NCBI GenBank assembly: GCA_029939655.1
Contig: JAOZSO010000002.1
Location: 2,116 to 34,333, forward strand
DNA length: 32,218 bases
Source: Desulfobacterales bacterium
GTDB taxonomy: Bacteria; Desulfobacterota; Desulfobacteria; Desulfobacterales; B30-G6
Direction of reading: 5' to 3'
Part shown: piece after piece, positions 1,906 to 16,969 of the stretch
Layout of the letters: each line of letters starts with the position of its first letter
Numbering within the stretch: the stretch's first letter is position 1
Notes under the pieces: model-generated
Database searches by the model: none
Told to the model about the DNA's origin: nothing
The model's input: only the letters and a program-made list of their open reading frames with translations
Program-made: the position numbers and the translations under genes

Positions 1906-2193
1906 ATGAAAAAATTATTTGATGGTAAAAAAACTGCAAAACTTGGCACCGAAAAGAATCCCGCAATTGTAAATGTAAAAACAAAAAAGAGAGTCAAGGA
2001 ATTAGAATCCGTATTTGAAAAAAACGATTGGAAATATTCAATTGAATTAGATTCAGACAAACCTGAGGATATTAATGACTTAGAAATGTTGTTGAATCCA
2101 CCAAAAACAGTGATCGCCGAAAAGAAAGTGGGGCGTAATGAACTCTGCCCCTGTGGAAGTGGTAAAAAACATAAAAAATGCTGTGGCAAATAA
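1906..2193 (+). CDS. SEC-C metal-binding motif protein (small, lysine-rich)
   Basis: 95 aa ending in [15 protein letters not shown], the canonical SecA C-terminal-type zinc motif. It starts 10 nt after the S4 gene, with RBS gagggtgaaaagATG. Confidence 0.75.
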
Positions 2194-2198
2194 GGATA

Positions 2199-2837
2199 AT
2201 GAATATGACGATCCAATCATGGCTCATGTATTTGGTGTTAGTATTTATCGCTACGTCAACACCCGGGCCGGCAGTTCTCTTCATCACGACAAGCGCAACA
2301 ATCCATGGATGGAGAAAAGCCGTCTTTGCTGCAATTGGCAATATTGTTGGTCTTTTCTGTCTTGGCATCATCGCGGTTACAGGATTGGGTACCGTACTCA
2401 ACACCTCAGAAATGATATTTAATAGTATCAAATATGCGGGTGCAACCTATCTGATCTATTTAGGCATTAAACTGATTTTTCAGAAAAATTCCGATGTAAC
2501 TACCATGAAAAAACAATTGATTTCGACAGATGTTTCATCTCAAAAACTATTTTTTCAAGCCTTGGGCGTTGCACTGAGCAATCCAAAGGCAATTGTATTC
2601 CTGACTGCCCTATTTCCACAGTTTGTTAACACCAAAGAAACTTTAATCCCTCAATTTTCTATGCTCATTGCTACATTGATGTTTTTTTCATTTTCTTTTT
2701 TGATGCTTTATGCCTTATTGGCGCACAAGGTAAAAGCCTGGATAGCAAAACCCAATAGAATTAAAGTTTTCAATCGAACAAGTGGTTCAATTTTTGTTGG
2801 TTTTGGTATCTTGCTGGCAACTTCATCAAATAACTGA
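2199..2837 (+). CDS. LysE/RhtB-family amino-acid exporter
   Basis: Six-TM-like profile with the N-terminal TPGPA motif (FIATSTPGPAVLF). I prefer the ATG at 2199, preceded by AAGGA, over the track start at 2178, which overlaps the previous gene. Confidence 0.8.
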   Translation: MNMTIQSWLMYLVLVFIATSTPGPAVLFITTSATIHGWRKAVFAAIGNIVGLFCLGIIAVTGLGTVLNTSEMIFNSIKYAGATYLIYLGIKLIFQKNSDVTTMKKQLISTDVSSQKLFFQALGVALSNPKAIVFLTALFPQFVNTKETLIPQFSMLIATLMFFSFSFLMLYALLAHKVKAWIAKPNRIKVFNRTSGSIFVGFGILLATSSNN

Positions 2838-2877
2838 GACTGATGGACGCCATCAAAAGTGCCCTGCCTGCAAGTTC

Positions 2878-2909
2878 ATCCACCAAATGTAGATTGACAT
2901 TTGGTGGAT
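2878..2909 (+). terminator. Perfect 13-bp inverted repeat (atccaccaaatgt / acatttggtggat) with a 6-nt loop, followed by a T-rich tract
   Basis: Read directly from the sequence. It lies 41 nt after the LysE stop and 57 nt before the first gene of the Ehr-type operon. It could be a terminator or an operator, and a TTGACA hexamer sits in the loop. Confidence 0.45.
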
Positions 2910-2965
2910 TTCATGTTTTCTCAAAAAATCTATCCGTATCAGAATCAGATTAAAAAGGGAGTTTT

Positions 2966-4924
2966 ATGAACAGTTTTTTTCTCTCGATTGCACTGATCTG
3001 CTGTGGCGGCTTTGCCACCCTTTTTATTTGGCGAAATTTTGTGTTGATGAAAGCCACCGCTGTTTCCGTCATCAGCATCGGATGCGCCATTGGATTGTTC
3101 GACGCCCTGGTCAAGCTACTGCATCAGGGGTCCCATGCTGCATCTTTTGAATATTTGAAACTATTTTCCCTTTCATTCCAAGTAGATGGACTGTCGGCAT
3201 TTTTCCTGGTTGCGATTTATGCCGTTTCCCTGCTTGCAGCAGTTTACAGTTTTCACTACCTCAATAAACCTGAAAAGGCTCTCCGCTCGGCAGTCAACTA
3301 TCTGTTTTTCTCCCTGTTGATCGTTTCCATGGCGCTGGTGGTGACTGCCGCCAACATGATCGCTTTTATGCTTTCCTGGGAAATCATGTCTCTGTCATCA
3401 TTTTTTCTGGTGATATATGACTACGAATCTGCTGAAAACCGAAAAGCCGGCTATCTCTATTTTATTTTTTCGCATGTCGGCGCCATGTTCATCCTGGTTT
3501 CTTTTGGTATATTATATGGGTATAGCGGCAGTTTTCTGTTCTCTTCCGGCAGCACCATCCCTGATTCGGCAAAATTACTGGTGTTAATACTCTCTTTTAT
3601 CGGATTTGGTTCAAAGGCCGGTGTGTTTCCGTTTCATGTCTGGCTGCCTCATGCCCACCCGGCCGCTCCGAGTCACATTTCAGCAGTGATGTCCGGTGTA
3701 ATGATAAAAACCGGAATTTACGGCATTGTACGCCTGTATGCCTCGCTGAGCCTGCATACGCCGCTGTTTGGTGAAATCGTACTGATTGCGGGAATGATTT
3801 CCGGCATTCTGGGTGTTGTCTACGCCCTCGGCCAGCACGACCTCAAACGGCTGCTTGCCTATCACAGCGTTGAAAATATCGGGATTATTCTGATCGGGAT
3901 CGGAATCGGCATGATCGGCGTATCCTCCGGCAACCCTATCATGGCTGTCCTTGGGTTTTCCGGGGGGCTGTTACATGTGTTAAATCACTCGATTTTCAAA
4001 TCACTGCTGTTCATGGGAGCCGGGGTGGTGATCCAGAAAACGGGAACGCGCACCATCGATATGCTGGGTGGTCTGCTCAAAAACATGAAAGTCACAGGTG
4101 TCACGTTCCTGGTCGGTTCTTTGGCCATTTCCGGTCTTCCGCCGTTTAACGGATTTGTGAGCGAATTTTTTATTTATTTAGGTGGGTTCAGAGGCGTGGC
4201 CCTCGACAAAACGGCTTTTGTGCTGAGCATCATGGCCATTGTCAGCCTCGCCATTATCGGTGGCCTGGCCCTGGCCTGTTTCACCAAGGTAGTGGGGGTG
4301 GTTTTCCAGGGAGAACCCAGGAGTTCGAGTGCTGTGGCCGTGGATGAAAAAGGGCCGGCTATGCTGGCACCCATGCTGATACTGGCCGCCGTTTGTATCA
4401 TCATAGGGGTGTTTCCACGGATGTTTATTACCCTGGCCCTGAAGGCTGTTCCGGTATCCGGGCTGGGGTATGGCCGCATACCCATGGAGCCGTTTATGCA
4501 GATGACGGCAAATATCACCCTGGCAGCCACAGTTTTCTTTATCGTTCTTCTGATACTTATTGCCCTCCGTCTTGTTTTATACCGGGGTAAGACTATCGGC
4601 AAAGCAGGAACCTGGGGGTGCGGTTTCACACAACCAACCGTTAAAATGCAGTATACCGGCACTTCCTACGCAGCCTCGATTCTCGAATTTTTCAGGCCGG
4701 CTGCCCCTCTGCAAGAGGATCATCCTAGAATTCGCGGTCGGTTTCCCCAAAAAACCCATTACCATAGCCATATCGATGACATAGCCGAGCTTCACATGGT
4801 GCGTGTGGTGGTCAATCCGGTTCTGTGGCTGTTCGACAGGTTGCGCTGGATACAGCACGGAGACATCCATTTGTATATCGGTTACATATTGCTGGCCATT
4901 GTGGTGCTTATATTTTTCGTATAA
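2966..4924 (+). CDS. ehrA: Ehr/Hyf-type complex, NuoL/HyfB-like antiporter-type membrane subunit
   Basis: 652 aa and polytopic. It has proton-conducting-membrane-transporter motifs (WLPHAHPAAPSHISAVMSG, LLAYHSVENIG) and a HyfB/HycC-type C-terminal extension (WGCGF...). RBS is GGGAG. The symbol is by analogy to the Geobacter ehrABCDLS naming. Confidence 0.85.
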   Translation: MNSFFLSIALICCGGFATLFIWRNFVLMKATAVSVISIGCAIGLFDALVKLLHQGSHAASFEYLKLFSLSFQVDGLSAFFLVAIYAVSLLAAVYSFHYLNKPEKALRSAVNYLFFSLLIVSMALVVTAANMIAFMLSWEIMSLSSFFLVIYDYESAENRKAGYLYFIFSHVGAMFILVSFGILYGYSGSFLFSSGSTIPDSAKLLVLILSFIGFGSKAGVFPFHVWLPHAHPAAPSHISAVMSGVMIKTGIYGIVRLYASLSLHTPLFGEIVLIAGMISGILGVVYALGQHDLKRLLAYHSVENIGIILIGIGIGMIGVSSGNPIMAVLGFSGGLLHVLNHSIFKSLLFMGAGVVIQKTGTRTIDMLGGLLKNMKVTGVTFLVGSLAISGLPPFNGFVSEFFIYLGGFRGVALDKTAFVLSIMAIVSLAIIGGLALACFTKVVGVVFQGEPRSSSAVAVDEKGPAMLAPMLILAAVCIIIGVFPRMFITLALKAVPVSGLGYGRIPMEPFMQMTANITLAATVFFIVLLILIALRLVLYRGKTIGKAGTWGCGFTQPTVKMQYTGTSYAASILEFFRPAAPLQEDHPRIRGRFPQKTHYHSHIDDIAELHMVRVVVNPVLWLFDRLRWIQHGDIHLYIGYILLAIVVLIFFV

Positions 4925-4937
4925 ATGAGATGATGTC

Positions 4938-5858
4938 ATGATTAAATCCATTTTATTCTGGGTTCTGGCCATACTGGTGGCCCCGTTTTTTTCAGCGGTT
5001 ATCCTCAAAGTGAAGGCTTTTTTCGGCGGGAAAAAGGGCCCCCCTCTGCTGATCAACTACTACACCCTCGTCAAGTTGTTCAAGAAGGGTTCGGTTTACA
5101 GCACCAGCACGACCTTTATCTTCAAACTGGGACCCGTGGTATCGCTGGGAGCTGCTGTCACTGTCCTGTTGTTTCTTCCCTTTGGGGGCCATCCGCCGGT
5201 TTTTTCGTTCAGTGGTGATCTTCTTTTCATTTTGTACCTGCTTGGCCTGGGCCGTTTTTTCACCATTGCGGCTGCCATGGACACCGCGTCGCCGTTCGAA
5301 GGAATGGGGGCAGCCCGGGAAGCCTATTTCCCGATTATCTGCGAAGCCACGATGTTCATGCTACTGATCCTGTTCTACATACTGACCGGTGAATTGCGCC
5401 TGGCGGCCTATTTTTCAGGCGGCCAGCCTTTTGGATTATGGCAGGCAGCCGGGTCGCCAATGCTGTTTGTGGTGATTGCCTTTTTCGTTATTCTTCTGGC
5501 GGAAAACTCACGCGTACCGGTAGATGATCCGGCCACCCATCTGGAGTTGACCATGATTCATGAAGTCATGGTGCTGGATCACAGCGGACCCGATTTAGGA
5601 TTTATCGAACTGGGATCTTTCTGCAAACTCTTTTTCTATTCATCCATTGTCGCCAGGCTGATCATGCCATTTGAATCAGGCTATCTTGCACTGAACATCT
5701 GCCTGTTCGTGACATCCCTGCTGGTTGTGTATATGGCCGTGGGTGTCATGGAATCGGTCGTGGCCCGTTACAGGATGGACAGGGTTCCCAAGTTCCTCCT
5801 GACCTCCTTTGCCCTGGCTTTTTTTGCAACCGTTATTACACTGGAGTTTCTAAGATGA
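4938..5858 (+). CDS. ehrB: Ehr/Hyf-type complex, NuoH/HyfC/HycD-like membrane subunit
   Basis: 306 aa. NuoH-family features are present (PFEGMGAAREA, AENSRVPVDDPATHLELTMIHE). Confidence 0.85.
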   Translation: MIKSILFWVLAILVAPFFSAVILKVKAFFGGKKGPPLLINYYTLVKLFKKGSVYSTSTTFIFKLGPVVSLGAAVTVLLFLPFGGHPPVFSFSGDLLFILYLLGLGRFFTIAAAMDTASPFEGMGAAREAYFPIICEATMFMLLILFYILTGELRLAAYFSGGQPFGLWQAAGSPMLFVVIAFFVILLAENSRVPVDDPATHLELTMIHEVMVLDHSGPDLGFIELGSFCKLFFYSSIVARLIMPFESGYLALNICLFVTSLLVVYMAVGVMESVVARYRMDRVPKFLLTSFALAFFATVITLEFLR

Positions 5859-6496
5859 ACATCCCGGTCGACATGACATTGTCCCTTGTTCTGCTTTCGG
5901 TTCTGTTTTCATTTGGTTCCAGCCGGCTGCCGGGGCTTATCAAGGTTCTGGCGTTTCAGGGAGTGGTCGTATCTATCGTCCCGCTGATAATCGGGCACGA
6001 CATGACCGGCGGCGGAATTTTGTTTACGCTTGCCACCTTGACGATTCGCGGTATCGTCATTCCTTTGTGCATACATTTCGCCATTAAAAAGGTTGCCATT
6101 CGCAGGGAAGTGGAACCGATCGTCGGCTATCACGCCTCAGTGCTGGCAGGCCTGGGGTTGATCGTGGCTGCCATGGCTGTCAGTCACAGATTCAATGCCC
6201 CGTCCATCAGTACCAGTGTACTACTGCTACCCACTGCCATCTCTCTTCTGGTCGCCGGCATGTTCCTGCTGATAGCACGGCGAAATGCCATCGCCATGGT
6301 GCTGGGGTATATCATGATGGAAAACGGCATCTATCTGGTGGGAACGACCTTTTCAGTGCGAGCCCTTCACATAGTGGAATTCGGCATTCTTCTGGATGTA
6401 CTGGCCGGTGTCATGATCATGGCCGTCATCCTTCAGAATATCAAACAGACATTTGATGATGTGGATACCGCCCTGCTCAGAACATTAAAGGAATAG
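5855..6496 (+). CDS. ehrC: Ehr/Hyf-type complex, HyfE/NuoK-like membrane subunit
   Basis: 213 aa and hydrophobic, with HyfE length and topology. The start overlaps the previous stop by 4 nt (ATGA). Confidence 0.75.
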   Translation: MNIPVDMTLSLVLLSVLFSFGSSRLPGLIKVLAFQGVVVSIVPLIIGHDMTGGGILFTLATLTIRGIVIPLCIHFAIKKVAIRREVEPIVGYHASVLAGLGLIVAAMAVSHRFNAPSISTSVLLLPTAISLLVAGMFLLIARRNAIAMVLGYIMMENGIYLVGTTFSVRALHIVEFGILLDVLAGVMIMAVILQNIKQTFDDVDTALLRTLKE

Positions 6497-6507
6497 GTGT
6501 TTGATTC

Positions 6508-7929
6508 ATGGTTGAAATCGTTTTCCTGGCCCCGTTTGTCACCGGCGTGATTGCCTTTTTCCTGCCCCGCAACATGGGGCGTCCGCTGCTGGTCTTTACC
6601 GGAGCACTTCACCTGTTGCTTTCCCTCCTGCTGTGGGTCCGGCAGCCCGAACCGCTGTTTAAATCCTATTTTGCCGTCACGCCGGAAGGAATGCTCTCGC
6701 TGCTGGTGATATCGCTCCTGTTTTTTCTGATATCCATTTATACGGTAGCCTATCTCAAGGTGGCCGATATCAAGTCCGAGCATATTTTTACCGGCTCCAT
6801 GCTGCTGTTTCTGTCCACCATGACCATGGTGACCCTTTCCGATCATATCATGGTCATGTGGATCGCCATTGAAGCGACAACCCTGGCCAGTGCGCCGCTG
6901 ATCTACACCCACCGATCTTCCGCTTCCCTGGAAGCCACCTGGAAATATGTACTGATCTGTTCTGTGGGCATTGCCATGGCGCTTTTGGGATCGGTGCTGA
7001 TCACGATTTCAATGGATGTCGGCAAGGTAGATGCGCCGGTTTCCTTTTCTGCGCTCACGGCGGTTGCAACCCGTCTTGATCCCATGTGGCTGAAAGCGGG
7101 TTTCGCCTTTATCCTGGTAGGATACGGCACAAAAATGGGTCTGGCGCCCATGCACACCTGGCTGCCCGATGCCCACAGCGAAGCGCCCAGCCCGGCATCG
7201 GCGCTGTTGTCCGGCGTACTGCTCAACTGCGCCTACCTCGGGATCTTCAAAACCAATAAAATCATGCTGGCAGCCGGCCTGGGCGATTTTTCCGGCCCTA
7301 TCCTAATGGGCTTCGGCCTGACTTCGATTCTGGCGGCAGGCACCTTTATTCTCAAGCAGACAGAATACAAACGCCTGCTGGCATATTCGAGCATTGAAAA
7401 CATGGGCATTATTGCCTTTGGAACAGGTGTTGGCGGACTGGGTGCCTATGGAGCCATGCTTTGCCTGATCCACCACAGTCTGATCAAATCTTCGCTGTTT
7501 CTGACTTCCGGCAACATTCTGCTGGGCTATGGCAGCCGGCAGATTGAAAAGACAGGCAACCTGGTTAAGCAGATGCCGCGGACCTTTGTAGCCTTTTTCG
7601 GCGGATTTGTCGCAATCTCAGGTCTGCCGCCCTTTGGAATTTTTATCGGCGAGCTGTTCGTCATCCTCGGGGCCTTTAAGGCCGGTCACTACATAGGCGT
7701 CACTGTTTTGGTGGTCAGTCTGTGTGCCATCTTTGCCGGTTTTGCCAACCAGGCAATGAAAATTTCTTTTAACACGTCGGAAGCGACCATTGGTTTGACG
7801 GAAAAAGCCAGTCTGGTCTGGCCCCAGTATGTGCTGCTATTAACCTCTCTGGTATTGTGTTTCTGGATCCCGGACTCCCTGTACCAGACAATAATGAATG
7901 CGGTAACTATCGTCAGTGGAGGTTTTTAA
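6508..7929 (+). CDS. ehrD: Ehr/Hyf-type complex, NuoN/NuoM/HyfF-like antiporter-type subunit
   Basis: 473 aa. Motifs include MHTWLPDAHSEAPSPASALLSG and LLAYSSIENMG. Confidence 0.85.
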   Translation: MVEIVFLAPFVTGVIAFFLPRNMGRPLLVFTGALHLLLSLLLWVRQPEPLFKSYFAVTPEGMLSLLVISLLFFLISIYTVAYLKVADIKSEHIFTGSMLLFLSTMTMVTLSDHIMVMWIAIEATTLASAPLIYTHRSSASLEATWKYVLICSVGIAMALLGSVLITISMDVGKVDAPVSFSALTAVATRLDPMWLKAGFAFILVGYGTKMGLAPMHTWLPDAHSEAPSPASALLSGVLLNCAYLGIFKTNKIMLAAGLGDFSGPILMGFGLTSILAAGTFILKQTEYKRLLAYSSIENMGIIAFGTGVGGLGAYGAMLCLIHHSLIKSSLFLTSGNILLGYGSRQIEKTGNLVKQMPRTFVAFFGGFVAISGLPPFGIFIGELFVILGAFKAGHYIGVTVLVVSLCAIFAGFANQAMKISFNTSEATIGLTEKASLVWPQYVLLLTSLVLCFWIPDSLYQTIMNAVTIVSGGF

Positions 7930-9437
7930 TGAACACGGCATTTCTGGAGGTTTCAAATGGTGTCGCCCTCCCCAGAAAACAGGTCCCGAACCTTACGTTT
8001 GACACCTTTCGTCAGGAAGCCCTGGATATTGTCGAAAACGGCGGGAAGGTCGTTCACTACTTTGCCTACATAGATAGCGACACCGTCAGATTTATGGCTG
8101 TACTGCGCAAGGATAAGCTGCTGGTTGCCGCCTGCAATGCGCCCGACACCTATCCGGCCATGAGCAGTCAATGCGAACCATTCCACATGTTTGAACGGGA
8201 AATTGCCGAACAGTTCGGTATCCGGCCCGAGGGTCATCCCTGGCTCAAAATGGTTCGCTATCATCCCAATTATATGAACAGAGCCGACGTCTTTAATAAC
8301 CACTACGCCGATGATATCCCCGGAAACTATAACTACTACAGCGTGGAAGGCCAGGAGATCCACGAAGTGGCTGTCGGCCCCGTGCATGCCGGAGTGATCG
8401 AACCAGGACATTTTCGGTTCAACTGTATTGGTGAACGGGTACTGAACCTGGAGATCCAACTGGGATACCAGCACCGGGGCATTGAAACACTTATTCCACA
8501 GGTAGAAGCCAAACGCTTGTCCCTTCTGGCCGAAAGCATTGCCGGTGACACCACGGTGGGCCACAGCCTCTGTATGGCTCAGGCCGTGGAGGCCTTTTCC
8601 GCAGTCATACCGGATAACGGGGCACACATCATCCGAACCATTGCTTTCGAGCTTGAACGTATTCAGAATCACGTGGGTGACCTGGGCGCATTGAGCGGGG
8701 ACGTTGCATTTTTGCCGCCCATGAACTACTGCGGCCGCATGCGGGGCGATTTTTTGAATATGTCACTGCTGCTTTGCGGCAATCGGTTCAGCAAAGGATT
8801 CATTCGTCCGGGAGGTGTGGTTTTCAATATGAACAACGAGGTCCGGAACATTCTGACCGAGCGCATCATTGAAATCAAACCGCAGGTCAAGCATGTTATC
8901 GATCTACTCTTTTCCACATCCAGTGTGCGTTCGCGCTTCGAAGATTGTGGAACAGTCAGCAGGTCCGATGCCGAAAACCTGGGGTTGGTGGGACCTGCCG
9001 GCCGGGCTTGCGGCATGCCCTACGATGTCAGACGCTGCTTTCCCAACGAACATTATTCTGAACTCGATATTCCGGAAAATGCCGAACACAGCGGAGATGT
9101 TTATGCCCGGGCCAAAATCAAAGCCGACGAAACCCTACAGGCCATCGATCTCATCCAGTCCCTGCTGAACAACCCGGTGGAAACGCATTGTGTTGAGCAG
9201 GAAAATCCGTCCATGGCACCCGATTCCTTTGTAGTAACCCTGAATGAGGCCTGGCGGGGTGAGGTTTCACATTGTGTTTTAACCGACGCGGCGGGAAAAA
9301 TTATACGCTACAAGATCAAGGACCCTTCCTTTCACAACTGGAACGGCTTGTCCATGTCTCTGCGGGATACAGAAATATCCGATTTCCCGCTCAACAACAA
9401 AAGCTACAATCTGTCGTATTGCGGCTTTGATCTATAG
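7929..9437 (+). CDS. ehrL: NuoC-NuoD fusion, the group-4 hydrogenase large-subunit homologue, lacking all [NiFe] cysteine ligands (Ehr large subunit)
   Basis: The core is GPVHAGVIEPGHFRF...LGYQHRGIE. The N-terminal CxxC position reads ESIAGDTTVGHS (8532-8567) and the C-terminal DPCxxC position reads YNLSYCGFDL-stop (9405-9437). I chose the ATG at 7929 (GGAGG RBS, overlaps the ehrD stop) rather than the track start at 7857. Confidence 0.85.
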   Translation: MNTAFLEVSNGVALPRKQVPNLTFDTFRQEALDIVENGGKVVHYFAYIDSDTVRFMAVLRKDKLLVAACNAPDTYPAMSSQCEPFHMFEREIAEQFGIRPEGHPWLKMVRYHPNYMNRADVFNNHYADDIPGNYNYYSVEGQEIHEVAVGPVHAGVIEPGHFRFNCIGERVLNLEIQLGYQHRGIETLIPQVEAKRLSLLAESIAGDTTVGHSLCMAQAVEAFSAVIPDNGAHIIRTIAFELERIQNHVGDLGALSGDVAFLPPMNYCGRMRGDFLNMSLLLCGNRFSKGFIRPGGVVFNMNNEVRNILTERIIEIKPQVKHVIDLLFSTSSVRSRFEDCGTVSRSDAENLGLVGPAGRACGMPYDVRRCFPNEHYSELDIPENAEHSGDVYARAKIKADETLQAIDLIQSLLNNPVETHCVEQENPSMAPDSFVVTLNEAWRGEVSHCVLTDAAGKIIRYKIKDPSFHNWNGLSMSLRDTEISDFPLNNKSYNLSYCGFDL

Positions 9438-9447
9438 GGAACCTAAG

Positions 9448-10191
9448 ATGCTTAATACGCTTAAAAACAGATTCGAACAGGGCTACAGAACATCAAAATA
9501 TCCACAGGAAAAAATCGAACTGTGGAAACGTTACCGTGGACGCCCACAAATCAATAAAAAGGCCCAAAGCGATCTGGCCCTGACCTGTGCAGCGGCCTGT
9601 CCCCAGGATGCCATCGATGCGCAAAAAAAATTAATTGACATGGGGCGCTGTGTTTTCTGCGGAACCTGTGAACGCGTTTCTAAAGGAAAATTTGTCACCT
9701 TTACCCAGGACTTCGAAATCGCCGTATCCGAAAAAGAGCACCTTAGCACGGACGGATCACTTCCTGAATTGGCCACACATGCCCGGCAGCATTTCAAAAA
9801 ACTTTTTGGCCGCTCTTTGCAGTTGCGCCAGGTATCGGCCGGCGGCTGCAACGCCTGCGAAGCGGATCTCAATGTCCTGGCAACACCCTTTTTTGACCTG
9901 GCCCGCTTTGGAATCAACTTCGTGGCTTCGCCCCGCCATGCAGACGGCATCGTCGTAACCGGACCCGTCTCCCGCAACATGAAAACGGCCCTGTTTCAAA
10001 CCTACGAGGCCGTACCCGACCCCAAAGTTGTCATCGCCGTGGGTACTTGTACCCTGACCGGAGGACCCTTCAGGGGCAGCCCTGAAATCACAGAAGGCCT
10101 GGACAACCTCTTGCCGGTGGATCTTTATATTCCGGGATGCCCGCCCCACCCGCTGACCAATCTGCACGCCTTGCTGACGTTTTTTAAGTAG
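9448..10191 (+). CDS. ehrS: NuoB/HyfI-like small subunit with an N-terminal degenerate NuoI/HyfH-type ferredoxin module
   Basis: The C-terminal half has GGCNACE...GTC...PGCPP, the proximal 4Fe-4S ligands. The N-terminal half has a single CVFCGTC motif plus CAAACP. ATG 9448 with RBS AGGGA is preferred, and TTG 9427 is an alternative. Confidence 0.8.
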   Translation: MLNTLKNRFEQGYRTSKYPQEKIELWKRYRGRPQINKKAQSDLALTCAAACPQDAIDAQKKLIDMGRCVFCGTCERVSKGKFVTFTQDFEIAVSEKEHLSTDGSLPELATHARQHFKKLFGRSLQLRQVSAGGCNACEADLNVLATPFFDLARFGINFVASPRHADGIVVTGPVSRNMKTALFQTYEAVPDPKVVIAVGTCTLTGGPFRGSPEITEGLDNLLPVDLYIPGCPPHPLTNLHALLTFFK

Positions 10192-10309
10192 ATACCCAGC
10201 TCTGGAGGGACTGGCACTGATCATGCCCTATAAGAGTTTACTCGTACATCCGATATTCTAAATTCGAAATACGAATATCGAAATACGAAACAAATCCAAA
10301 TATTGAATG

Positions 10310-10371
10310 TTCAAATGTCCTAAACAAAAGCCCTTTTTTATACCTCCAAGGCTACGTTTTGATCATTTGAA
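10310..10371. repeat. Imperfect inverted repeat (ttcaaatgtcctaaac / gttttgatcatttgaa) between convergent genes; possible bidirectional terminator
   Basis: The arms match at 13 of 16 positions around a 30-nt spacer. It sits between the ehrS stop (10191) and the minus-strand gene stop (10403). Confidence 0.3.
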
Positions 10372-10402
10372 TGCACCCCGTTTGTTTATTCTTTTTCCCG
10401 CA

Positions 10403-11824
10403 TCACGGACGGATGATGATGGTCGGATACAGTCCTTCCTGTTCTCCCATGGGATAGGGTTGGATCGTGTTGAAGGAAATGTTTTGATTTTGCTGGGCGT
10501 GGCCCTTATTCGAATGACCGTTGAAAAAAGCCCCGTTGGCCTCCAGGATATGCTGAATTCTCTCTTTGAAGGCTGTAACAAATTCGGCGCCGCTTCCTTC
10601 AAAAATCATGTCACCTTTTGAAAAGCGGGTGTTGATTTTTGAAAAGGCCTTCAGAGACATACTGTTGTTCTTCAGGTCCTTTTCATCCGTCACCAGCCCC
10701 CAGACCAAATAGCCTGCCGGAATCGTCATTGGCTTGTGGACATCGATGATCGTATGCGGCATGATGATGCTATCCTGGCCGATGGTCAGTCGTGATTCCG
10801 GCCGTCCCCTCAGAAAACAGTTAAAACCGACAAATACATCCTTACCCAGGTCAGCCTCGATAATTTTGGCGCCATGGGCGGTAATGTCATTACCCTCCAG
10901 GCGTGAGTTGATGATATAGCTATGCTCCTGGGCGTTGGCACCTTTGCCGAGCCAGGCATTCTGAAGAAAGGCCCGCTGTGAAACCAGCACATTTTCGCTG
11001 ATATGCGTTTTGGGTCTGATCACGGCAAAGCGGTCAAGCGATGCGCTGTTGGGAACAGACACGGAAGGTTCCAGGTTGACCACGTTAAAAATCCGCTGGA
11101 AAGCCTCTTTGCGATCTTCCACAAAATCGATAAAGACTCCCTGGGGAGAACCACCGGCAGCAAAATAGATGTAATTGTTCAACCGTTGAAGGGGAAACCG
11201 GTACAGGAAATTGAACGTTTCAGGGCTACGCACCCACACCGTCCCGGGTTCAATATTCAGGTGGCTCACTTCCCCGGCTTGTATATAAGAAAATGTTCCG
11301 ACGAGACAGTCCCGTATCGTTGTGAGATCAACGGTTGAAAAGGGCCCCAGGAAGCATCCATCCGAAGGGGAGCCGTGGATATTGGCATAATGGGTGGAGA
11401 TGGTATCCCTGATAAAAAATTTCTCCAACGTTTCCGGGTCGTGAGAAAAATTGTGAACCAGCGTTTTGATCAGGAAGCTGTCATCTATCTCGATCTCTTC
11501 ATCCTCAGCCACCGGTATTTCAAATTCCTGATATTGGAACAGCTCTGCTTTCTGTTTGAGTTCGTCCCCCCTGATATCGCTCTTGTAGAGAAGTGAGTTG
11601 GTAACACTGCATTTTCCCAGAAAGTAGCTGCCGGCCAAATTGGAGTGTCTGAACTGAAGATGCAGCGGATGGTGGGGCGTAATGCCGTAAAATGCATAAA
11701 ATTTTGTCATCTGGTTCGGTGGGATAAGTTTTTGAACCAACGGGTTCACATCGTATTCGAGTTCCCGCAGGTTGATGTTGACGCGCTGGATAATCCTGTC
11801 CAATAGTCTTTCGAGTTCTTTCAT
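10403..11824 (-). CDS. Large hexapeptide-repeat (left-handed beta-helix) family protein, function unknown
   Basis: 473 aa. The C-terminal half has an LbH/gamma-carbonic-anhydrase/PaaY-like periodicity (GANAQEHSYIINSRLEGNDITAHGAKIIEADLGKDVFVGFNCFL...IGQDSIIMPHTII). I do not recognise the roughly 200-aa N-terminus. Confidence 0.6.
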   Translation of the reverse strand: MKELERLLDRIIQRVNINLRELEYDVNPLVQKLIPPNQMTKFYAFYGITPHHPLHLQFRHSNLAGSYFLGKCSVTNSLLYKSDIRGDELKQKAELFQYQEFEIPVAEDEEIEIDDSFLIKTLVHNFSHDPETLEKFFIRDTISTHYANIHGSPSDGCFLGPFSTVDLTTIRDCLVGTFSYIQAGEVSHLNIEPGTVWVRSPETFNFLYRFPLQRLNNYIYFAAGGSPQGVFIDFVEDRKEAFQRIFNVVNLEPSVSVPNSASLDRFAVIRPKTHISENVLVSQRAFLQNAWLGKGANAQEHSYIINSRLEGNDITAHGAKIIEADLGKDVFVGFNCFLRGRPESRLTIGQDSIIMPHTIIDVHKPMTIPAGYLVWGLVTDEKDLKNNSMSLKAFSKINTRFSKGDMIFEGSGAEFVTAFKERIQHILEANGAFFNGHSNKGHAQQNQNISFNTIQPYPMGEQEGLYPTIIIRP

Positions 11825-12399
11825 GGTATATCCTCACCTACTTTGGTTGCTTCGACCTCTTTCATGACATGGAAGGTTGCAGCGAACACATCCGGCATTC
11901 TCAGTATACCCACAATTTTCTTTTTTTGAGTCACCAGCAGAGACAGATGGTGCCCTGTGAGCAGCTGGTGGACGGCGGTATCAAGGGAAGTGTCTTCATT
12001 GACGTACTCGCCTTCGGAAGGGGTTTGCATAAATTCTTCAACCTTGAGCTTGACCGCTTTTGTGTAGATGTCCTTGTTTGGTGGAGCCGTCCGACGGTAC
12101 TGTTCCTGTTGAAGCGCAATGGACTTTGAGCTAAAGCCGAACTTTCTGATATCCTTTATCCGTTCAATTTTATCATCCTTTGGATCAAGGGACCGCAGGA
12201 AATCCAACTGACTGACTTTTCCAACCACCTGTTTGTTGCTGTCCAAAACCAGTACGGCACGGTGGGAGTATTGGGTATGGCAATATTCCTCCTGGGCTTT
12301 TTCCAGCGCAAGCACGGCCTCGGACAGTGTCGATCCCACGGCTACGGTCGCATATTCTGAAATTGGAACCATCAAGTCCTTCACACAATATTGTTTCAT
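11821..12399 (-). CDS. CBS-pair domain protein
   Basis: 192 aa with two CBS-like modules (VKDLMVP...AVLVLDSNKQVVGKVSQLDFL and VEEFMQTP...LLVTQKKKIVGILRMPDV). RBS is GGAGGA. It overlaps the downstream gene by 4 nt. Confidence 0.8.
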   Translation of the reverse strand: MKQYCVKDLMVPISEYATVAVGSTLSEAVLALEKAQEEYCHTQYSHRAVLVLDSNKQVVGKVSQLDFLRSLDPKDDKIERIKDIRKFGFSSKSIALQQEQYRRTAPPNKDIYTKAVKLKVEEFMQTPSEGEYVNEDTSLDTAVHQLLTGHHLSLLVTQKKKIVGILRMPDVFAATFHVMKEVEATKVGEDIP

Positions 12400-12420
12400 A
12401 TCTCCTCCAAGGTACGTTGG

Positions 12421-12837
12421 CTATTGCGATTCAAATTCGATCTGCGTATTGGCCTGGGCCGCCGACAGTCCCGGAAAGGTCGAGGTCACGATCCTGGGCA
12501 TGCTGTGGCTGAGATTGCGTTCCAGCTGGTCACGCCCCTCCAGGGCTTCCGACACACGCTTTTTGAAATAAAACAGGTTTGCCGTCAGTTTTTTTGCCGA
12601 CCGGCACCCGCTTATCCTCCTGCCAGAAAGATTTCGGCAGTCTGTTTTTTAATTCGGGGTTTACCCGAAAAGCTTTGGACGTACTGAAGACCTTGAGAGG
12701 TTCAGGGATATTGCCCGAATCCATGACCACAAACTGACCGGTTTTCGGTTCGTAGCCAACATGGCTGGCCTGGATGATCACCTTTTGTCGGCCAGGCACT
12801 TGGTCTGGCCGATCTTGGTAAACACCCGTCCAAGCAT
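12421..12837 (-). pseudogene. Disrupted small ORF of unknown family that needs 2-3 reading frames
   Basis: The track ORF 12530-12799 continues plausibly in another frame after an A7 run (T7 on the plus strand, 12589-12595). That frame reads ...AKKLTANLFYFKKRVSEALEGRDQLERNLSHSMPRIVTSTFPGLSAAQANTQIEFESQ-stop at 12421. An upstream ATG at 12837 lies in a third frame. Confidence 0.5.
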
Positions 12838-14094: not shown

Positions 14095-14376
14095 ATGAAT
14101 ATTACGAACGACATAAAATCAGTATCTTATTTAAAATCTAGGGCTGCAGATTTATTATCTCAGATTAATGAGACTCACCGTCCTGTCATCATAACGCAGA
14201 ATGGAGAACCACGAGCTGTTCTTCAAGATCCAAAAAGCTATGAGGATATGCGTAATGTAATCGGATTACTGAAACTGATATCTCAGGGTGAAAGTGATGT
14301 CCGGAACGAAAAGGTAAAATCTCAAGATAGTGTGTTTAAAAACATTGAGAAATCACTGAAAGAAAAACCTAAATGA
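14095..14376 (+). CDS. Type II antitoxin, Phd/YefM family
   Basis: 93 aa. The N-terminus VSYLKSRAADLLSQINETHRPVIITQNGEPRAVLQDPKSYE is typical of Phd/YefM. Confidence 0.85.
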   Translation: MNITNDIKSVSYLKSRAADLLSQINETHRPVIITQNGEPRAVLQDPKSYEDMRNVIGLLKLISQGESDVRNEKVKSQDSVFKNIEKSLKEKPK

Positions 14377-14705
14377 AACAAAACTACAAAGTTATCTGGG
14401 CAAATGTTGCAGAAAGTGATTTGAAAGATATTATTGAATACATATCAATAGACAGCCCTCAAAACGCACTAAGAATCTTAAAAAATATTAAACATAAAAC
14501 TTCAGAGCTTTATACCCTTCCTGAAAGAAACCGTATTGTTCCAGAACTTCAAGACCAAGGAATATTACAATACAGAGAAATGATCATACCGCCATGGAGG
14601 TTGATATACAGGATTGCTGAACGGAAAGTATATGTATTATCATTAATAGATTCTCGCCGGAATGTTGAAGATATCCTATTGAAAAGATTAATAGCAACCA
14701 AATAA
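14373..14705 (+). CDS. Type II toxin, RelE/ParE family (ParE-like)
   Basis: 110 aa. It overlaps the antitoxin by 4 nt (ATGA). Motifs are A..DL..I..YI and the C-terminal YRI..R.V.VL...D.RR. Confidence 0.85.
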   Translation: MKQNYKVIWANVAESDLKDIIEYISIDSPQNALRILKNIKHKTSELYTLPERNRIVPELQDQGILQYREMIIPPWRLIYRIAERKVYVLSLIDSRRNVEDILLKRLIATK

Positions 14706-16662: not shown

Positions 16663-16667
16663 AAGTG

Positions 16668-16969
16668 ATGAATATTCAAACAACCATCGTCATGCCGAAC
16701 AACGCGCCCCGTCATTGGGTAAGCTTACATTCCCACTGGTGCTGGAATACGTAGACGATATGAAAACGGTTTCAGAAAAAGCCATTATTGAGGCTGTTCA
16801 ATTTCTATTTTATCGAATGAAACTGGTGGTTGAGCCGTCAGGCGCTCTTGGGCTGGCAGCCCTGCTGAGTCAGGCTGTGGTACCGGAAGGCCGGGTTGGA
16901 ATCATCTTAAGTGGCGGAAACATAGATTCTGACACAATGATAACGATTTTAAGCGGAGTTATCTCATGA
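16668..16969 (+). pseudogene. Remnant of a PLP-dependent threonine dehydratase / serine racemase-family gene (internal deletion and frameshift)
   Basis: One frame reads MNIQTTIVMPNNAP, matching the family TIVMP..AP motif, then stops. The next frame carries only the family C-terminus (VSEKAIIEAVQFLFYRMKLVVEPSGALGLAALL...IILSGGNID). Confidence 0.6.

What the first reader, a model, noticed from the sequence alone, without database searches (positions are those of the whole stretch)
2966..10191. Six-gene Ech/Hyf-hydrogenase-related (Ehr-type) membrane complex whose large subunit has lost every [NiFe] ligand
The operon is compact, with overlapping or short junctions. It encodes a NuoL-like, a NuoH-like, a HyfE/NuoK-like and a NuoN-like subunit, then a NuoC-NuoD fusion and a NuoB-like subunit.

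In the large subunit, group-4 hydrogenases carry R-x-C-G-x-C-x3-H, but this sequence reads ESIAGDTTVGHS (8532-8567; Cys to Ala and Cys to Thr). The C-terminal DPCxxC is replaced by YNLSYCGFDL-stop (9405-9437). There is no protease-cleaved C-terminal extension.

The window contains no hyp or hycI maturation genes and no formate dehydrogenase, CODH or other partner. The NuoB-like proximal cluster ligands (CNAC, GTC, GCPP) are intact.

The machine therefore probably keeps its Fe-S wiring and ion-pumping modules but cannot be a hydrogenase. This matches the comparative-genomics class called Ehr, with the same gene order as the Geobacter ehrABCDLS annotation. I know of no assigned substrate, electron donor or acceptor for that class.
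Basis: partly seen in the sequence, partly recalled or inferred. Interest (0 to 1): 0.75.

Follow-up and report, generated by a model that had tools for sequence, protein, structure and literature searches.

The report
Cysteine-less hydrogenase-like membrane complex (Ehr)
This is an intact, strongly conserved six-gene operon for a membrane ion-pumping complex that descends from a nickel-iron hydrogenase but has lost its metal site; the class (Ehr/Hyq) is already known, is common, and still has no proven function.

Summary
Six tightly packed + strand genes (2966-10191) encode HyfB-, HyfC/NuoH-, HyfE-, HyfF-, HycE/NuoCD- and NuoB-like proteins. In formal alignments the large subunit has Ala, Thr, Ser and Gly at the four [NiFe] cysteine columns.

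Three corrections:
- The last gene is a fusion of a HycF/NuoI-type ferredoxin domain with a NuoB-like domain. In this Desulfobacterales clade the ligands of the outer ferredoxin-domain cluster are lost, so the Fe-S wire is shortened to two clusters.
- The missing C-terminal extension is not diagnostic. Four-Cys sister sequences also lack it, and one has the same six-gene layout.
- The rhizobial Hyq "endo-hydrogenase", claimed from genetics to handle H2, carries the same Cys-less signature.

The operon is not decaying. dN/dS is about 0.06-0.12 for all six genes, 50 of 54 complete orthologous loci are intact, and the proton-channel residues are kept. The same stand-alone cluster occurs in at least seven phylum-level lineages with no shared redox partner. 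In Desulfobacterales the only recurrent neighbour is a 473-aa left-handed beta-helix protein.

Verdict: a new member of the known Ehr family. It is probably a ferredoxin-driven (or reversible) ion pump whose acceptor is unproven; menaquinone is my best guess, held weakly.

The parts
2878..2909 (+). A 13-bp-stem palindrome containing TTGACA, followed by a T-rich tract, 57 nt upstream of ehrA. It could be the terminator of the upstream LysE gene, a promoter/operator of the ehr operon, or both.
   Evidence: Terminator-like hit and the sequence itself. The core GATTGACATTTGGTnGATTTCATGTTTTCT is conserved upstream of ehrA in close relatives L001-L004 while the flanks differ. Function not tested.
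2966..4924 (+). ehrA: a 652-aa HyfB/NuoL-like antiporter-type subunit.
   Evidence: Proton_antipo_M 6.5e-52 and NCBIfam hydrogenase 4 subunit B 6.5e-172, below that model's curated cut-off. It keeps E139 (TM5), K217 (TM7), K248 (TM8), H337/H341/K345 (TM11) and E400 (TM12). dN/dS is 0.09-0.12 against L001/L003/L004.
4938..5858 (+). ehrB: a 306-aa HyfC/HycD/NuoH-like subunit that links the membrane arm to the peripheral arm.
   Evidence: NADHdh 7e-34. The alignment with HyfC, HycD and NuoH keeps the GP loop, the E of 'CEATM', the PxD..ExEL motif and the ARxR motif. dN/dS is about 0.08-0.10.
5855..6496 (+). ehrC: a 213-aa HyfE-like subunit whose C-terminal half is NuoK-like.
   Evidence: NCBIfam hydrogenase 4 membrane subunit 8e-21 and Oxidored_q2 2.4e-5, both below their curated cut-offs. 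The HyfE-type membrane acidic residues (E of 'MENG', D of 'LLDV') are kept. dN/dS is 0.06-0.09.
6508..7929 (+). ehrD: a 473-aa HyfF/NuoM/N-like antiporter-type subunit.
   Evidence: Proton_antipo_M 7e-51 and hydrogenase 4 subunit F 1.5e-100, below that model's curated cut-off. It keeps E122, K209, H323, K327 and E382. The TM8 position is Asn, as in HyfF. dN/dS is about 0.08-0.10.
7929..9437 (+). ehrL: a 502-aa NuoC-NuoD/HycE-like large subunit without [NiFe] ligands. The degenerate L1 motif lies at 8532-8567 and the degenerate L2 motif plus stop at 9405-9437.
   Evidence: Complex1_49kDa 2.6e-37. The best solved relative is HycE, 7e-37. It has A205/T208/S496/G499 at the four Cys columns. The family signature [AS]-G-D-[ST] has Asp207 in 92% of Cys-less representatives. 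dN/dS is 0.07-0.11.
9448..10191 (+). ehrS: a 247-aa fusion of a HycF/NuoI-type ferredoxin domain (about 9448-9780) with a NuoB/HycG-like domain (about 9823-10188). Motif 1 (9568-9603, SDLALTCAAACP) has lost Cys I and II. Motif 2 (9649-9681, CVFCGTCERVS) has lost Cys IV.
   Evidence: Oxidored_q6 1e-28. NCBIfam formate hydrogenlyase Fe-S subunit 1.4e-19 on residues 8-112, below that model's curated cut-off. Alignments with HycF/HyfH/NuoI and HycG/HyfI/NuoB. Nine Cys are invariant in 74 orthologues. dN/dS is about 0.08-0.09.
10403..11824 (-). Conserved neighbour, association uncertain: a 473-aa protein with two left-handed beta-helix (hexapeptide) domains, transcribed convergently with ehrS.
   Evidence: It matches PDB 3c8v 'putative acetyltransferase' at 2.5e-156. 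A homologue is present in 47 of 64 informative Desulfobacterales loci, with a median distance of 160 bp after ehrS, in convergent or co-directional orientation. Upstream neighbours are not conserved at all. It is absent from nine of the ten clusters examined outside Desulfobacterales; the tenth (L088) was not checked for it.
11821..12399 (-). A 192-aa CBS-domain protein, the first gene of the two-gene minus-strand unit with the beta-helix protein.
   Evidence: CBS 3.1e-11. It co-occurs in 29 of 64 informative loci, mostly together with the convergent form of the beta-helix gene.

Best explanation
The operon encodes a functional six-subunit Ehr/Hyq-family membrane complex. It derives from a six-subunit group-4 [NiFe] hydrogenase with the same gene order, from which the Ni-Fe site was removed: Cys to Ala/Thr/Ser/Gly, with an Asp inserted at the centre of the former site.

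Proposed mechanism (inferred, not shown): a low-potential cytoplasmic donor, most plausibly reduced ferredoxin, delivers electrons to the one remaining [4Fe-4S] cluster of the ferredoxin domain of EhrS. They pass to the NuoB-type proximal cluster and then to an acceptor bound in the rebuilt polar pocket at the EhrL/EhrS/EhrB interface. In a menaquinone-containing sulfate reducer the most economical acceptor is menaquinone. The redox step drives H+ or Na+ translocation through EhrB/EhrC and the two antiporter-like subunits EhrA and EhrD. The reaction may run backwards to make reduced ferredoxin at the expense of the membrane potential. It is very unlikely to be a conventional hydrogenase.

I am about 0.9 confident in the identity (a selected, intact Ehr complex lacking a [NiFe] site). 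I am about 0.35 confident in the donor and acceptor assignment.
For: Identity:
- Homologies of all six proteins.
- All four Cys columns are substituted.
- Four-Cys sister sequences share the family motifs GPIHAGIIEPGHFRF and DFPLINKSF.L.Y..D. One of them (L096) has the same six-gene layout and the same ferredoxin-NuoB fusion.

Functionality:
- dN/dS is 0.06-0.12 for every gene where dS is unsaturated.
- 50 of 54 complete orthologous loci have six intact ORFs in order.
- Asp207 is 92% conserved across more than 100 clusters at 50% identity and is absent from the four-Cys sisters.

Fe-S chain: C51 plus C68/C71/C74, and C134/C137/C201/C231, are invariant in 74 orthologues.

Pumping: the TM5 Glu, TM7 Lys, TM11 His/Lys and TM12 Glu are kept in both antiporter-like subunits, and the HyfC/HyfE acidic residues are kept.

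Self-contained module: the same cluster occurs with unrelated neighbours in Hydrogenedentota, Sulfurospirillum, Magnetoovum, Rikenellaceae, Variovorax and Rhizobium, and the ehrL-ehrS end is seen on a truncated Spirochaetia contig. This implies ubiquitous substrates such as ferredoxin and a pool carrier rather than a dedicated partner enzyme.

Expression precedent: all Geobacter Ehr subunits were detected by proteomics (PMC7894505).
Against: - The canonical quinone ligands of NuoD are absent. The Thermus Nqo4 His38 column is Ile157 and the Tyr87 column is Gly206.
- The NuoB-like domain has hydrogenase-type CxxC, not the complex-I tandem CC.
- The protein is closer to HycE than to NuoD.
- Ehr complexes are reported in Margulisbacteria genomes that lack quinone biosynthesis (PMC6349859), so quinone cannot be the universal acceptor.
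- The distal cluster is degenerate in several lineages and the whole ferredoxin domain is absent in Hyq. The classical ferredoxin entry point is therefore dispensable.
- No biochemical datum exists for any member.
Confidence: 0.4

Rival explanations
1. It is a redox-gated or redox-independent cation/proton transporter. The one or two remaining Fe-S clusters are structural or act as sensors of the ferredoxin redox state, and the large subunit is a plugged, non-catalytic coupling element. An Asp207-Lys491 pair could fill the old metal cavity.
For: The electron-input end is trimmed stepwise across the family. Two clusters are present in most phyla, one in this clade, L086 and Rikenellaceae, and none in the Hyq type. 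No partner enzyme is conserved anywhere. The canonical quinone ligands are absent. The only family-specific gain in the pocket is a charged Asp.
Against: The ligands of the proximal cluster and the medial cluster are invariant in 74 orthologues. The hydrogenase proton-path residues E158/H161/R163 are retained. Known redox-free relatives (Mrp) dispense with NuoB/NuoD-like subunits altogether (established knowledge).
Confidence: 0.2
2. It is an ion-pumping oxidoreductase that reduces a soluble, non-quinone acceptor at the rebuilt pocket, for example a sulfur species, by analogy with the MBS/Mbx complex of Pyrococcus.
For: The pocket is polar, with conserved Asp, Ser/Thr, His, Asn and Lys. The host lineage is a sulfur-cycling sulfate reducer. 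MBS is a precedent for a hydrogenase-derived complex that changed substrate; 6u8y_L matches at 4e-17. Ehr occurs in quinone-less organisms (PMC6349859).
Against: MBS is a more distant relative than FHL, MBH or Nqo4. As I recall, the published MBS mechanism relies on a three-Cys proximal cluster, whereas EhrS keeps all four Cys. The family occurs in aerobes and non-sulfur organisms such as Rhizobium, Variovorax and Nitrospira (PMC10284858), so a sulfur-specific role is not general.
Confidence: 0.15
3. It is a genuine but non-canonical hydrogenase, as claimed for the Azorhizobium Hyq 'endo-hydrogenase'. It would activate or evolve H2 at a site that does not use the four cysteines.
For: The Rhizobium Hyq orthologue has the same Cys-less signature as the window protein (SGDST ... 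NKSFNCSYSGHDL-stop). In A. caulinodans, hyq deletion abolished H2 recycling and about 80% of microaerobic H2 evolution, also in a nifK background (PMC2650096; PMC3357923 section 7). The hydrogenase proton-path residues are retained.
Against: No known H2-activating metal site lacks cysteine ligation (established knowledge). The Hyq evidence is whole-cell genetics only. No hyp or hycI genes are in the window or next to any cluster examined. Hydrogenase classifications exclude Ehr (PMC6349859, PMC10284858).
Confidence: 0.1
4. It is a decaying, non-functional remnant of a Hyf-type hydrogenase operon. This is the view taken of the Geobacter copy in PMC13194489.
For: Loss of all catalytic ligands; a published statement that Ehr is 'nonfunctional' in G. 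sulfurreducens KN400; one distant locus (L087) looks fragmented.
Against: dN/dS is 0.06-0.12 in all six genes. 50 of 54 loci are intact. Substitutions at the old site are themselves conserved. The cluster ligands and channel residues are invariant. The family persists across many phyla. Geobacter subunits are detected as protein (PMC7894505).
Confidence: 0.02

Closest known systems
Ehr (Ech/energy-converting hydrogenase-related) complexes: Geobacter sulfurreducens EhrA-S (GSU0739-0745); class defined by Coppi 2005 and Marreiros et al. 2013
   Same: A group-4-type large subunit without Ni-Fe cysteines, a NuoB-like small subunit with a [4Fe-4S] site, and NuoL-like, NuoH-like, HyfE-like and NuoN-like membrane subunits in one operon. 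Function unknown.
   Different: Geobacter is reported to have two ehrA genes (PMC7894505, PMC13194489); this operon has one. I could not retrieve the Geobacter sequences, so orthology and the state of its ferredoxin domain are untested.
Hyq 'endo-hydrogenase' of Azorhizobium caulinodans and rhizobia (hyqRBCEFGI)
   Same: The same six structural genes in the same order, and the same Cys-less signature in the large subunit of the Rhizobium orthologue.
   Different: The Hyq small subunit is NuoB-only (177 aa, no ferredoxin domain). A sigma-54 activator gene, hyqR, precedes that operon, and no regulator gene is adjacent here. Hyq was reported to metabolise H2 in vivo and is proposed to use ubiquinone. 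Identity to the window large subunit is about 34%.
Four-Cys six-subunit group-4 [NiFe] hydrogenases, probably HydDB group 4f (e.g. locus L096)
   Same: Identical gene order and the same ferredoxin-NuoB fusion. The same large-subunit motifs (GPIHAGIIEPGHFRF, DFPLINKSF.L.Y..D) and the same lack of a C-terminal extension.
   Different: They keep R-x-C-G-[AV]-C and L-C-Y-[SA]-C and both ferredoxin clusters. The window has S-I-A-G-D-T and L-S-Y-C-G and only one ferredoxin-domain cluster. The assignment to group 4f rests on PMC10284858, not on a classifier run here.
E. coli hydrogenase 4 / formate hydrogenlyase (HyfA-J, HycB-G; PDB 7z0s)
   Same: The best solved relative of the large subunit (E 7e-37). 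EhrA, B, C, D, L and S correspond to HyfB, C, E, F, G and H+I, and the channel residues match the HyfB and HyfF patterns.
   Different: There is no HyfA/HycB electron-input ferredoxin, no HyfD, no HyfJ/HycH, no HycI protease, no FdhF link and no Ni-Fe ligands. HyfH and HyfI are fused.
Respiratory complex I / NDH-1 (NuoB, CD, H, I, K, L, M, N)
   Same: The shared module architecture and antiporter-type proton-channel residues, and the loss of the Ni-Fe site in the NuoD-like subunit.
   Different: The quinone-ligating His and Tyr columns are Ile and Gly. NuoB has CxxC rather than CC. There is no NuoA, no separate NuoJ and no NuoEFG.

Membership tests
Ehr (energy-converting hydrogenase-related) complex | The large subunit is homologous to group-4 [NiFe] hydrogenase large subunits and NuoD. 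| tested here: met
   Complex1_49kDa 2.6e-37; HycE 7z0s_E 7e-37; MbhL 7e-32; Nqo4 3e-27.
Ehr (energy-converting hydrogenase-related) complex | All four Ni-Fe-ligating cysteines (L1 RxCGxC and L2 DPCxxC) are absent. | tested here: met
   A205, T208, S496 and G499 lie at the HycE C241/C244/C531/C534 columns. The same holds in 106 of 111 diverse relatives.
Ehr (energy-converting hydrogenase-related) complex | A NuoB-like small subunit with a complete [4Fe-4S] ligand set. | tested here: met
   C134, C137, C201 and C231 align with the HycG/HyfI ligands and are invariant in 74 orthologues.
Ehr (energy-converting hydrogenase-related) complex | NuoH-like and Mrp/NuoL-M-N-like membrane subunits are encoded in the same operon. 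| tested here: met
   channel residues.
Ehr (energy-converting hydrogenase-related) complex | Gene order ehrA-B-C-D-L-S, as annotated in Geobacter. | tested here: inconclusive
   The same order was verified in six other lineages. The Geobacter locus was not available; only subunit names come from PMC7894505.
Group 4 [NiFe] hydrogenase (Hyf/FHL 4a, or 4f) | Four cysteine ligands for the Ni-Fe centre. | tested here: not met
Group 4 [NiFe] hydrogenase (Hyf/FHL 4a, or 4f) | The six-subunit architecture of the four-Cys sister group, including the ferredoxin-NuoB fusion. | tested here: met
   L096 compared with the window.
Group 4 [NiFe] hydrogenase (Hyf/FHL 4a, or 4f) | Maturation genes (hyp, endopeptidase) in the genome. 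| not testable with these tools
   None was found in the 32-kb window. The rest of the genome is not available.
Respiratory complex I (quinone-reducing NuoD type) | The quinone head-group ligands His38 and Tyr87 (Thermus Nqo4 numbering). | tested here: not met
   The columns are Ile157 (97 of 106 relatives) and Gly206 (98 of 106).
Respiratory complex I (quinone-reducing NuoD type) | A tandem Cys-Cys ligand pair for cluster N2 in NuoB. | tested here: not met
   The window has GGCNACE, the hydrogenase-type CxxC; E. coli NuoB has SCC.
Hyq endo-hydrogenase (rhizobia) | Six structural genes hyqBCEFGI in this order, with a Cys-less HyqG. | tested here: met
   The Rhizobium johnstonii plasmid locus L088 has a 504-aa HyqG and a HyqI with Cys55/58/152, as described in PMC3357923. 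The order and signature are shared.
Hyq endo-hydrogenase (rhizobia) | A NuoB-only small subunit and an upstream sigma-54 activator gene, hyqR. | tested here: not met
   The window small subunit is a 247-aa ferredoxin-NuoB fusion. The upstream genes are LysE and MFS transporters.
MBS/Mbx (sulfane-reducing hydrogenase relative) | A thirteen-subunit Mrp-type membrane arm and a three-Cys proximal cluster. | tested here: not met
   Only six subunits of Hyf type, four Cys on the proximal cluster, and MbsL is a weaker match (4e-17). The MBS features are recalled from the literature, not re-derived.

The most novel reading that the evidence does not exclude
The family-wide, strongly conserved replacement of the Ni-Fe site ([AS]-G-D-[ST] plus ...S-Y-x-G-x-D-L-COOH) could be a new catalytic centre rather than a plug. 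Taken with the published hyq genetics, it might activate or evolve H2, or another small molecule, without cysteine-bound Ni-Fe. The progressive loss of the ferredoxin-domain clusters would then reflect a different electron route. A weaker variant: in Desulfobacterales the complex works together with the conserved neighbouring beta-helix protein, which resembles gamma-carbonic anhydrases and acyltransferases. Precedents for such a pairing are the gamma-CA subunits of plant complex I and the Cup proteins of cyanobacterial NDH-1.
Probability: 0.1. Interest if true: 0.85.

Novelty: new member of a known kind. Interest (0 to 1): 0.4.

Why it matters
Ehr/Hyq complexes are among the most widespread complex-I relatives without an assigned reaction. 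This search found more than 8,000 90%-identity clusters related to the large subunit and at least 577 matching stretches in species-representative genomes, mostly Desulfobacterales. These are key carbon and sulfur cyclers of marine sediments, and the two Desulfobacteraceae energy-metabolism papers I searched do not mention the complex under the names I tried.

If it is a ferredoxin:menaquinone (or reverse) ion pump, it would change the energy budget assumed for complete-oxidising sulfate reducers. If the Hyq-type H2 claims hold for a Cys-less site, it would be a new kind of hydrogen chemistry.

This particular locus adds no new class. It does supply testable details: the two-cluster wire, the invariant Asp207, and a conserved beta-helix neighbour.

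Tried and rejected
- **AlphaFold2 of EhrS from a single sequence** gave mean pLDDT 34 and was discarded. No fold search was run on it, and multimer modelling is not available.
- **Rfam scan of the whole window:** no hit.
- **Sigma-70 promoter and terminator scans** of 2000-12600 gave counts no higher than shuffled sequence. Only the 2878-2909 hairpin was kept, because of its conservation.
- **De novo clustering of flanking ORFs** in 80 Desulfobacterales loci found no redox partner. Only the beta-helix protein, the CBS protein and shadow ORFs recur.
- **A carbonic-anhydrase link for the beta-helix protein** stayed inconclusive. Similarity to E. coli CaiE (5e-5) and to a CcmM model (3e-5, far below its cut-off) is weak, and only two of the three expected metal-binding His seem to align. 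PDB sequence hits other than 3c8v are GlmU-type acetyltransferases at E above 0.07.
- **Literature on this complex in Desulfobacteraceae** proteogenomic papers found nothing under Nuo, Ech, Hyf or hydrogenase.
- **Confirming from open papers which ferredoxin-motif cysteines bind N6a versus N6b** was not possible. That assignment rests on my recollection of the Thermus Nqo9 structure.
- **A shifted set of four Cys** was considered and rejected.
- **A selenocysteine read-through at the C-terminus** was considered and rejected: the stop is TAG, and ehrS starts 10 nt later.

Full report
**1. What is in the sequence**

Six ORFs lie head to tail on the + strand:

| Gene | Coordinates | Length |
|---|---|---|
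| ehrA | 2966-4924 | 652 aa |
| ehrB | 4938-5858 | 306 aa |
| ehrC | 5855-6496 | 213 aa |
| ehrD | 6508-7929 | 473 aa |
| ehrL | 7929-9437 | 502 aa |
| ehrS | 9448-10191 | 247 aa |

The ORF lister starts the last two genes at an upstream GTG (7857) and TTG (9427). Homology begins at the ATGs at 7929 and 9448, and 120 listed relatives are 502-503 aa long, so I use those starts. The junctions are then a 13-nt gap, a 4-nt overlap, an 11-nt gap, a 1-nt overlap and a 10-nt gap. A good Shine-Dalgarno sequence (AAAGGGAG) precedes ehrA.

Pfam and NCBIfam assign the proteins as follows:
- ehrA: HyfB/NuoL-like
- ehrB: NuoH/HycD-like
- ehrC: HyfE-like, with a NuoK-like C-terminal half
- ehrD: HyfF/NuoM-N-like
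- ehrL: NuoC-NuoD/HycE-like
- ehrS: NuoB-like

**2. The metal site**

phmmer against all PDB sequences ranks E. coli HycE first (7z0s_E, 7e-37). MbhL (7e-32) and Thermus Nqo4 (3e-27) follow, and MBS MbsL is weaker (4e-17).

The HycE alignment places 'SiAGdTtvgHS' under 'RvCGiCgfaHS'. I built a MAFFT alignment with HycE, HyfG, NuoCD and 111 full-length representatives of 50%-identity clusters. In it the window has A205, T208, S496 and G499 at the four ligand columns. The one cysteine near the C-terminus (C498) is out of register. It is Cys in only 43 of 106 Cys-less relatives, Ser in 27 and Ala in 21. The refuting scenario of 'ligands present at shifted positions' therefore fails.

The quoted coordinates (8532-8567 and 9405-9437) are exact. 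The stop codon is TAG, so selenocysteine read-through is not an issue.

**3. A correction: the sixth protein and the Fe-S wire**

EhrS is not simply NuoB-like. Residues 8-112 match the HycF/HyfH/NuoI ferredoxin family (1.4e-19, below that model's curated cut-off), and residues about 126-247 match NuoB. So it is a HyfH-HyfI fusion.

Aligned with HycF, HyfH and NuoI, the first CxxCxxCxxxCP motif reads S-DL-A-LT-C47-AAA-C51-P. The second reads C68-VF-C71-GT-C74-ERV-S78.

In 2x[4Fe-4S] ferredoxins one cluster uses Cys I-III of motif 1 plus Cys IV of motif 2, and the other uses Cys I-III of motif 2 plus Cys IV of motif 1. This is established topology. Only the second cluster keeps four ligands here (C51, C68, C71, C74). 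By homology with Thermus Nqo9, that is the N6b-type cluster next to N2. This assignment is my recollection of the published structure; I could not confirm it in the open papers.

All nine cysteines, including the four NuoB-type ligands C134/C137/C201/C231, are invariant in 74 Desulfobacterales orthologues.

The distal-cluster loss is lineage-specific:
- Both motifs are complete in Hydrogenedentota, Variovorax, Sulfurospirillum, Magnetoovum, Spirochaetia and two further metagenomic clusters.
- They are degenerate again in L086 and in Rikenellaceae.
- The whole domain is missing in the rhizobial Hyq type.

'Keeps its Fe-S wiring' is thus only partly true. The wire is cut back to two clusters here and to one in Hyq.

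**4. Is it alive?**

Pairwise Nei-Gojobori dN/dS between the window genes and the closest orthologues (L001, L003, L004; dS 0.3-1.8) is 0.06-0.12 for every one of the six genes. Of 54 loci in which the whole cluster fits on the contig, 50 have six intact ORFs in the same order.

Both antiporter-like subunits keep the canonical residues. I verified the columns against E. coli NuoL E144/K229/K399, NuoM E144/K234/K265/E407 and NuoN E133/K217/K247/K395:

| Position | EhrA | EhrD |
|---|---|---|
| TM5 Glu | E139 | E122 |
| TM7 Lys | K217 | K209 |
| TM8 | K248 | N240 (Asn, as in HyfF) |
| TM11 His/Lys | H337, H341, K345 | H323, K327 |
| TM12 Glu | E400 | E382 |

EhrB and EhrC keep the acidic and loop residues shared by HyfC/HycD/NuoH and by HyfE. 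The 'decayed Hyf operon' alternative is rejected.

**5. What the site became, and where the family comes from**

Across the Cys-less representatives, the residues that replace the ligands are themselves conserved: [AS]205, G206, D207 (92%) and [ST]208. The C-terminus reads D-F-P-L-x-N-K-S-F-N-L-S-Y-x-G-x-D-L and then stops.

Five representatives with all four cysteines sit beside or inside this radiation in a neighbour-joining tree. They share GPIHAGIIEPGHFRF and DFPLINKSF.LCYSC.D[RL], and they also end without a C-terminal extension. One of them lies in a cluster with the identical six-gene order and the same ferredoxin-NuoB fusion, with both cluster motifs intact (L096).

Three conclusions follow:
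- The missing extension is not evidence of loss of function.
- The N-K-S and neighbouring residues are ancestral.
- The one family-specific gain is Asp207, between the two former L1 cysteines.

A published tree places Ehr next to group 4f hydrogenases (PMC10284858), which fits. I did not run a classifier.

The complex-I quinone ligands are not recreated. The Nqo4 His38 column is Ile157 and the Tyr87 column is Gly206. The NuoB-like domain has hydrogenase-type CxxC rather than the complex-I CC.

**6. Distribution and context**

Named ones come from Desulfosarcina, Desulfobacterales and 'Deltaproteobacteria'. Against 50%-identity representatives there are 688 hits below 1e-30. Named members include Hydrogenedentota, Acidobacteriota, Sulfurospirillum, Ca. 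Magnetoovum, Spirochaetia and Rikenellaceae. The best 80 loci are almost all Desulfobacterales, at 62-89% identity.

The same stand-alone A-B-C-D-L-S cluster appears in six distant lineages and on Variovorax and Rhizobium plasmids. The neighbours are unrelated, and none of the clusters has an adjacent formate dehydrogenase, CODH, NuoEF or hyp gene.

The other window ORFs scanned against Pfam are housekeeping or transport genes: MFS, LysE, EamA, Phd/ParE, RlmL, nitroreductase, ClpB, HemA, FabD, DksA and RNase III.

**7. One recurrent neighbour**

None of the window's upstream genes is found next to the cluster in the 80 Desulfobacterales loci. A homologue of the 473-aa hexapeptide-repeat protein encoded convergently at 10403-11824 is present in 47 of 64 informative loci. 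Its median distance is 160 bp after ehrS. It occurs either convergently (about 70-92% identity) or co-directionally (about 51%). A CBS protein precedes it in 29 loci.

The protein matches PDB 3c8v ('putative acetyltransferase') at 2.5e-156. It has about 2,200 relatives, mostly annotated 'transferase' or 'carbonic anhydrase/acetyltransferase-like'. Its resemblance to gamma-carbonic-anhydrase-like proteins is weak and inconclusive. It is absent from nine of the ten clusters examined outside Desulfobacterales; I did not check L088 for it.

Retention of adjacency while all other synteny is scrambled hints at a functional link. Shared ancestry within one order cannot be excluded.

**8. Comparison with what is known**

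The Ehr class was named from the Geobacter genome (Coppi 2005) and generalised by Marreiros et al. (2013). Papers I could read describe it as lacking the Ni-Fe ligands and of unknown function (PMC6349859, PMC10284858, PMC4758237). All Geobacter Ehr subunits were detected by proteomics and were more abundant on formate (PMC7894505). A 2026 paper nonetheless calls the complex non-functional (PMC13194489).

The Azorhizobium hyqRBCEFGI operon has the same six structural genes (PMC2650096, PMC3357923). I retrieved a Rhizobium orthologue whose HyqG is 504 aa and whose HyqI has Cys55/58/152, as described there. It carries the same Cys-less signature. Those authors reported hyq-dependent H2 recycling and H2 evolution in vivo, also in a nifK mutant. 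This is whole-cell genetics only.

So the statement 'cannot be a hydrogenase' is the orthodox inference, and I share it. But there is a published, unrefuted claim to the contrary for a member of the same family.

**9. How it most likely works**

*Shown:*
- An intact, selected six-subunit complex.
- Two cysteine-complete [4Fe-4S] sites.
- A full set of ion-channel residues.
- A rebuilt polar pocket with an invariant Asp.
- No dedicated partner.

*Inferred:*
- Electrons from a ubiquitous low-potential donor (ferredoxin) enter at the remaining ferredoxin-domain cluster.
- They pass to the proximal cluster and reduce an acceptor at the EhrL/EhrS/EhrB interface.
- This drives H+ or Na+ export, or the reverse reaction.
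- In a menaquinone-containing sulfate reducer, a ferredoxin:menaquinone reaction would link CODH and oxoacid oxidation to the Qmo/Dsr quinol consumers, which is bioenergetically attractive.

*Against the quinone reading:* the canonical quinone ligands are absent, the family occurs in organisms reported to lack quinones (PMC6349859), and the input clusters are dispensable in some lineages. I therefore give the donor and acceptor assignment only about 0.35. I keep three live rivals: a redox-gated or redox-free transporter (0.2), another soluble acceptor (0.15) and a non-canonical hydrogenase (0.1).

**10. Verdict**

The finding is real and correctly classified. It is a new member of a known, widespread and functionally unassigned family, not a new kind of system.

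The added value here is fourfold:
- the ferredoxin-NuoB fusion with loss of its distal cluster;
- the demonstration that the Cys-less site is under strong purifying selection with a family-specific Asp;
- the identification of four-Cys sister sequences, one in a cluster of identical architecture;
- the placement of Hyq in the same family, and a conserved beta-helix neighbour in Desulfobacterales.

Interest is moderate (0.4). The open question, what Ehr does, is long-standing, but this locus does not by itself make it more testable than the Geobacter or rhizobial copies.

Noticed in passing
window 10403-12399 (- strand): A two-gene unit, a CBS-domain protein followed by a 473-aa double left-handed beta-helix protein (matches PDB 3c8v, E 2.5e-156). 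It is the only gene set that stays next to the ehr cluster across Desulfobacterales: 47 of 64 informative loci, in convergent or co-directional orientation. Its function is unknown, and its similarity to gamma-carbonic-anhydrase-like proteins is weak and inconclusive.
   Followed up: partly
window 2878-2909: A perfect 13-bp inverted repeat (ATCCACCAAATGT-AGATTG-ACATTTGGTGGAT) that contains TTGACA and is followed by a T-rich tract. It lies between the LysE gene and ehrA. Its right half and the downstream 20 nt are conserved upstream of ehrA in the four closest relatives, although the flanking genes differ. It could be a terminator, a promoter/operator, or both.
   Followed up: partly
window 10264-10289: Two direct copies of TCGAAATACGAA, two bases apart, in the AT-rich 211-nt spacer between the converging ehrS and beta-helix genes.
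   Followed up: no
L089 3920-11204 and L097 270-7454 (Variovorax sp. PBL-E5 plasmid 3): One plasmid carries two Cys-less six-gene clusters about 3.4 kb apart. One has the ferredoxin-NuoB fusion (249 aa, both cluster motifs intact). The other is Hyq-type with a NuoB-only small subunit (176 aa). Their coexistence suggests the two subtypes are not redundant.
   Followed up: partly
L087 1-7747: In one distant metagenomic cluster the membrane-subunit genes are called as several short pieces (170-240 aa), while the large and small subunits are intact. This is either a genuinely decaying copy or assembly frameshifts.
   Followed up: no
window 14095-14705: A Phd/YefM antitoxin and ParE toxin pair sits in the lowest-GC kilobase of the window (GC 0.365 against about 0.48-0.53 around it). 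It is possibly a small inserted island.
   Followed up: no
window 16622-16969: A 115-aa ORF matches only the last ~75 positions of the PLP-dependent enzyme (PALP) domain. It overlaps the end of the RlmL-like gene by about 40 nt and looks like a gene remnant.
   Followed up: no
window 29543-31105: A single 520-aa ORF combines an N-terminal PHP phosphoesterase domain with a complete RNase III plus dsRNA-binding domain. This is an unusual fusion, if the upstream TTG start is real.
   Followed up: no
window 18482-19030: A stand-alone 182-aa protein consists only of a pyruvate-kinase C-terminal (alpha/beta) domain.
   Followed up: no
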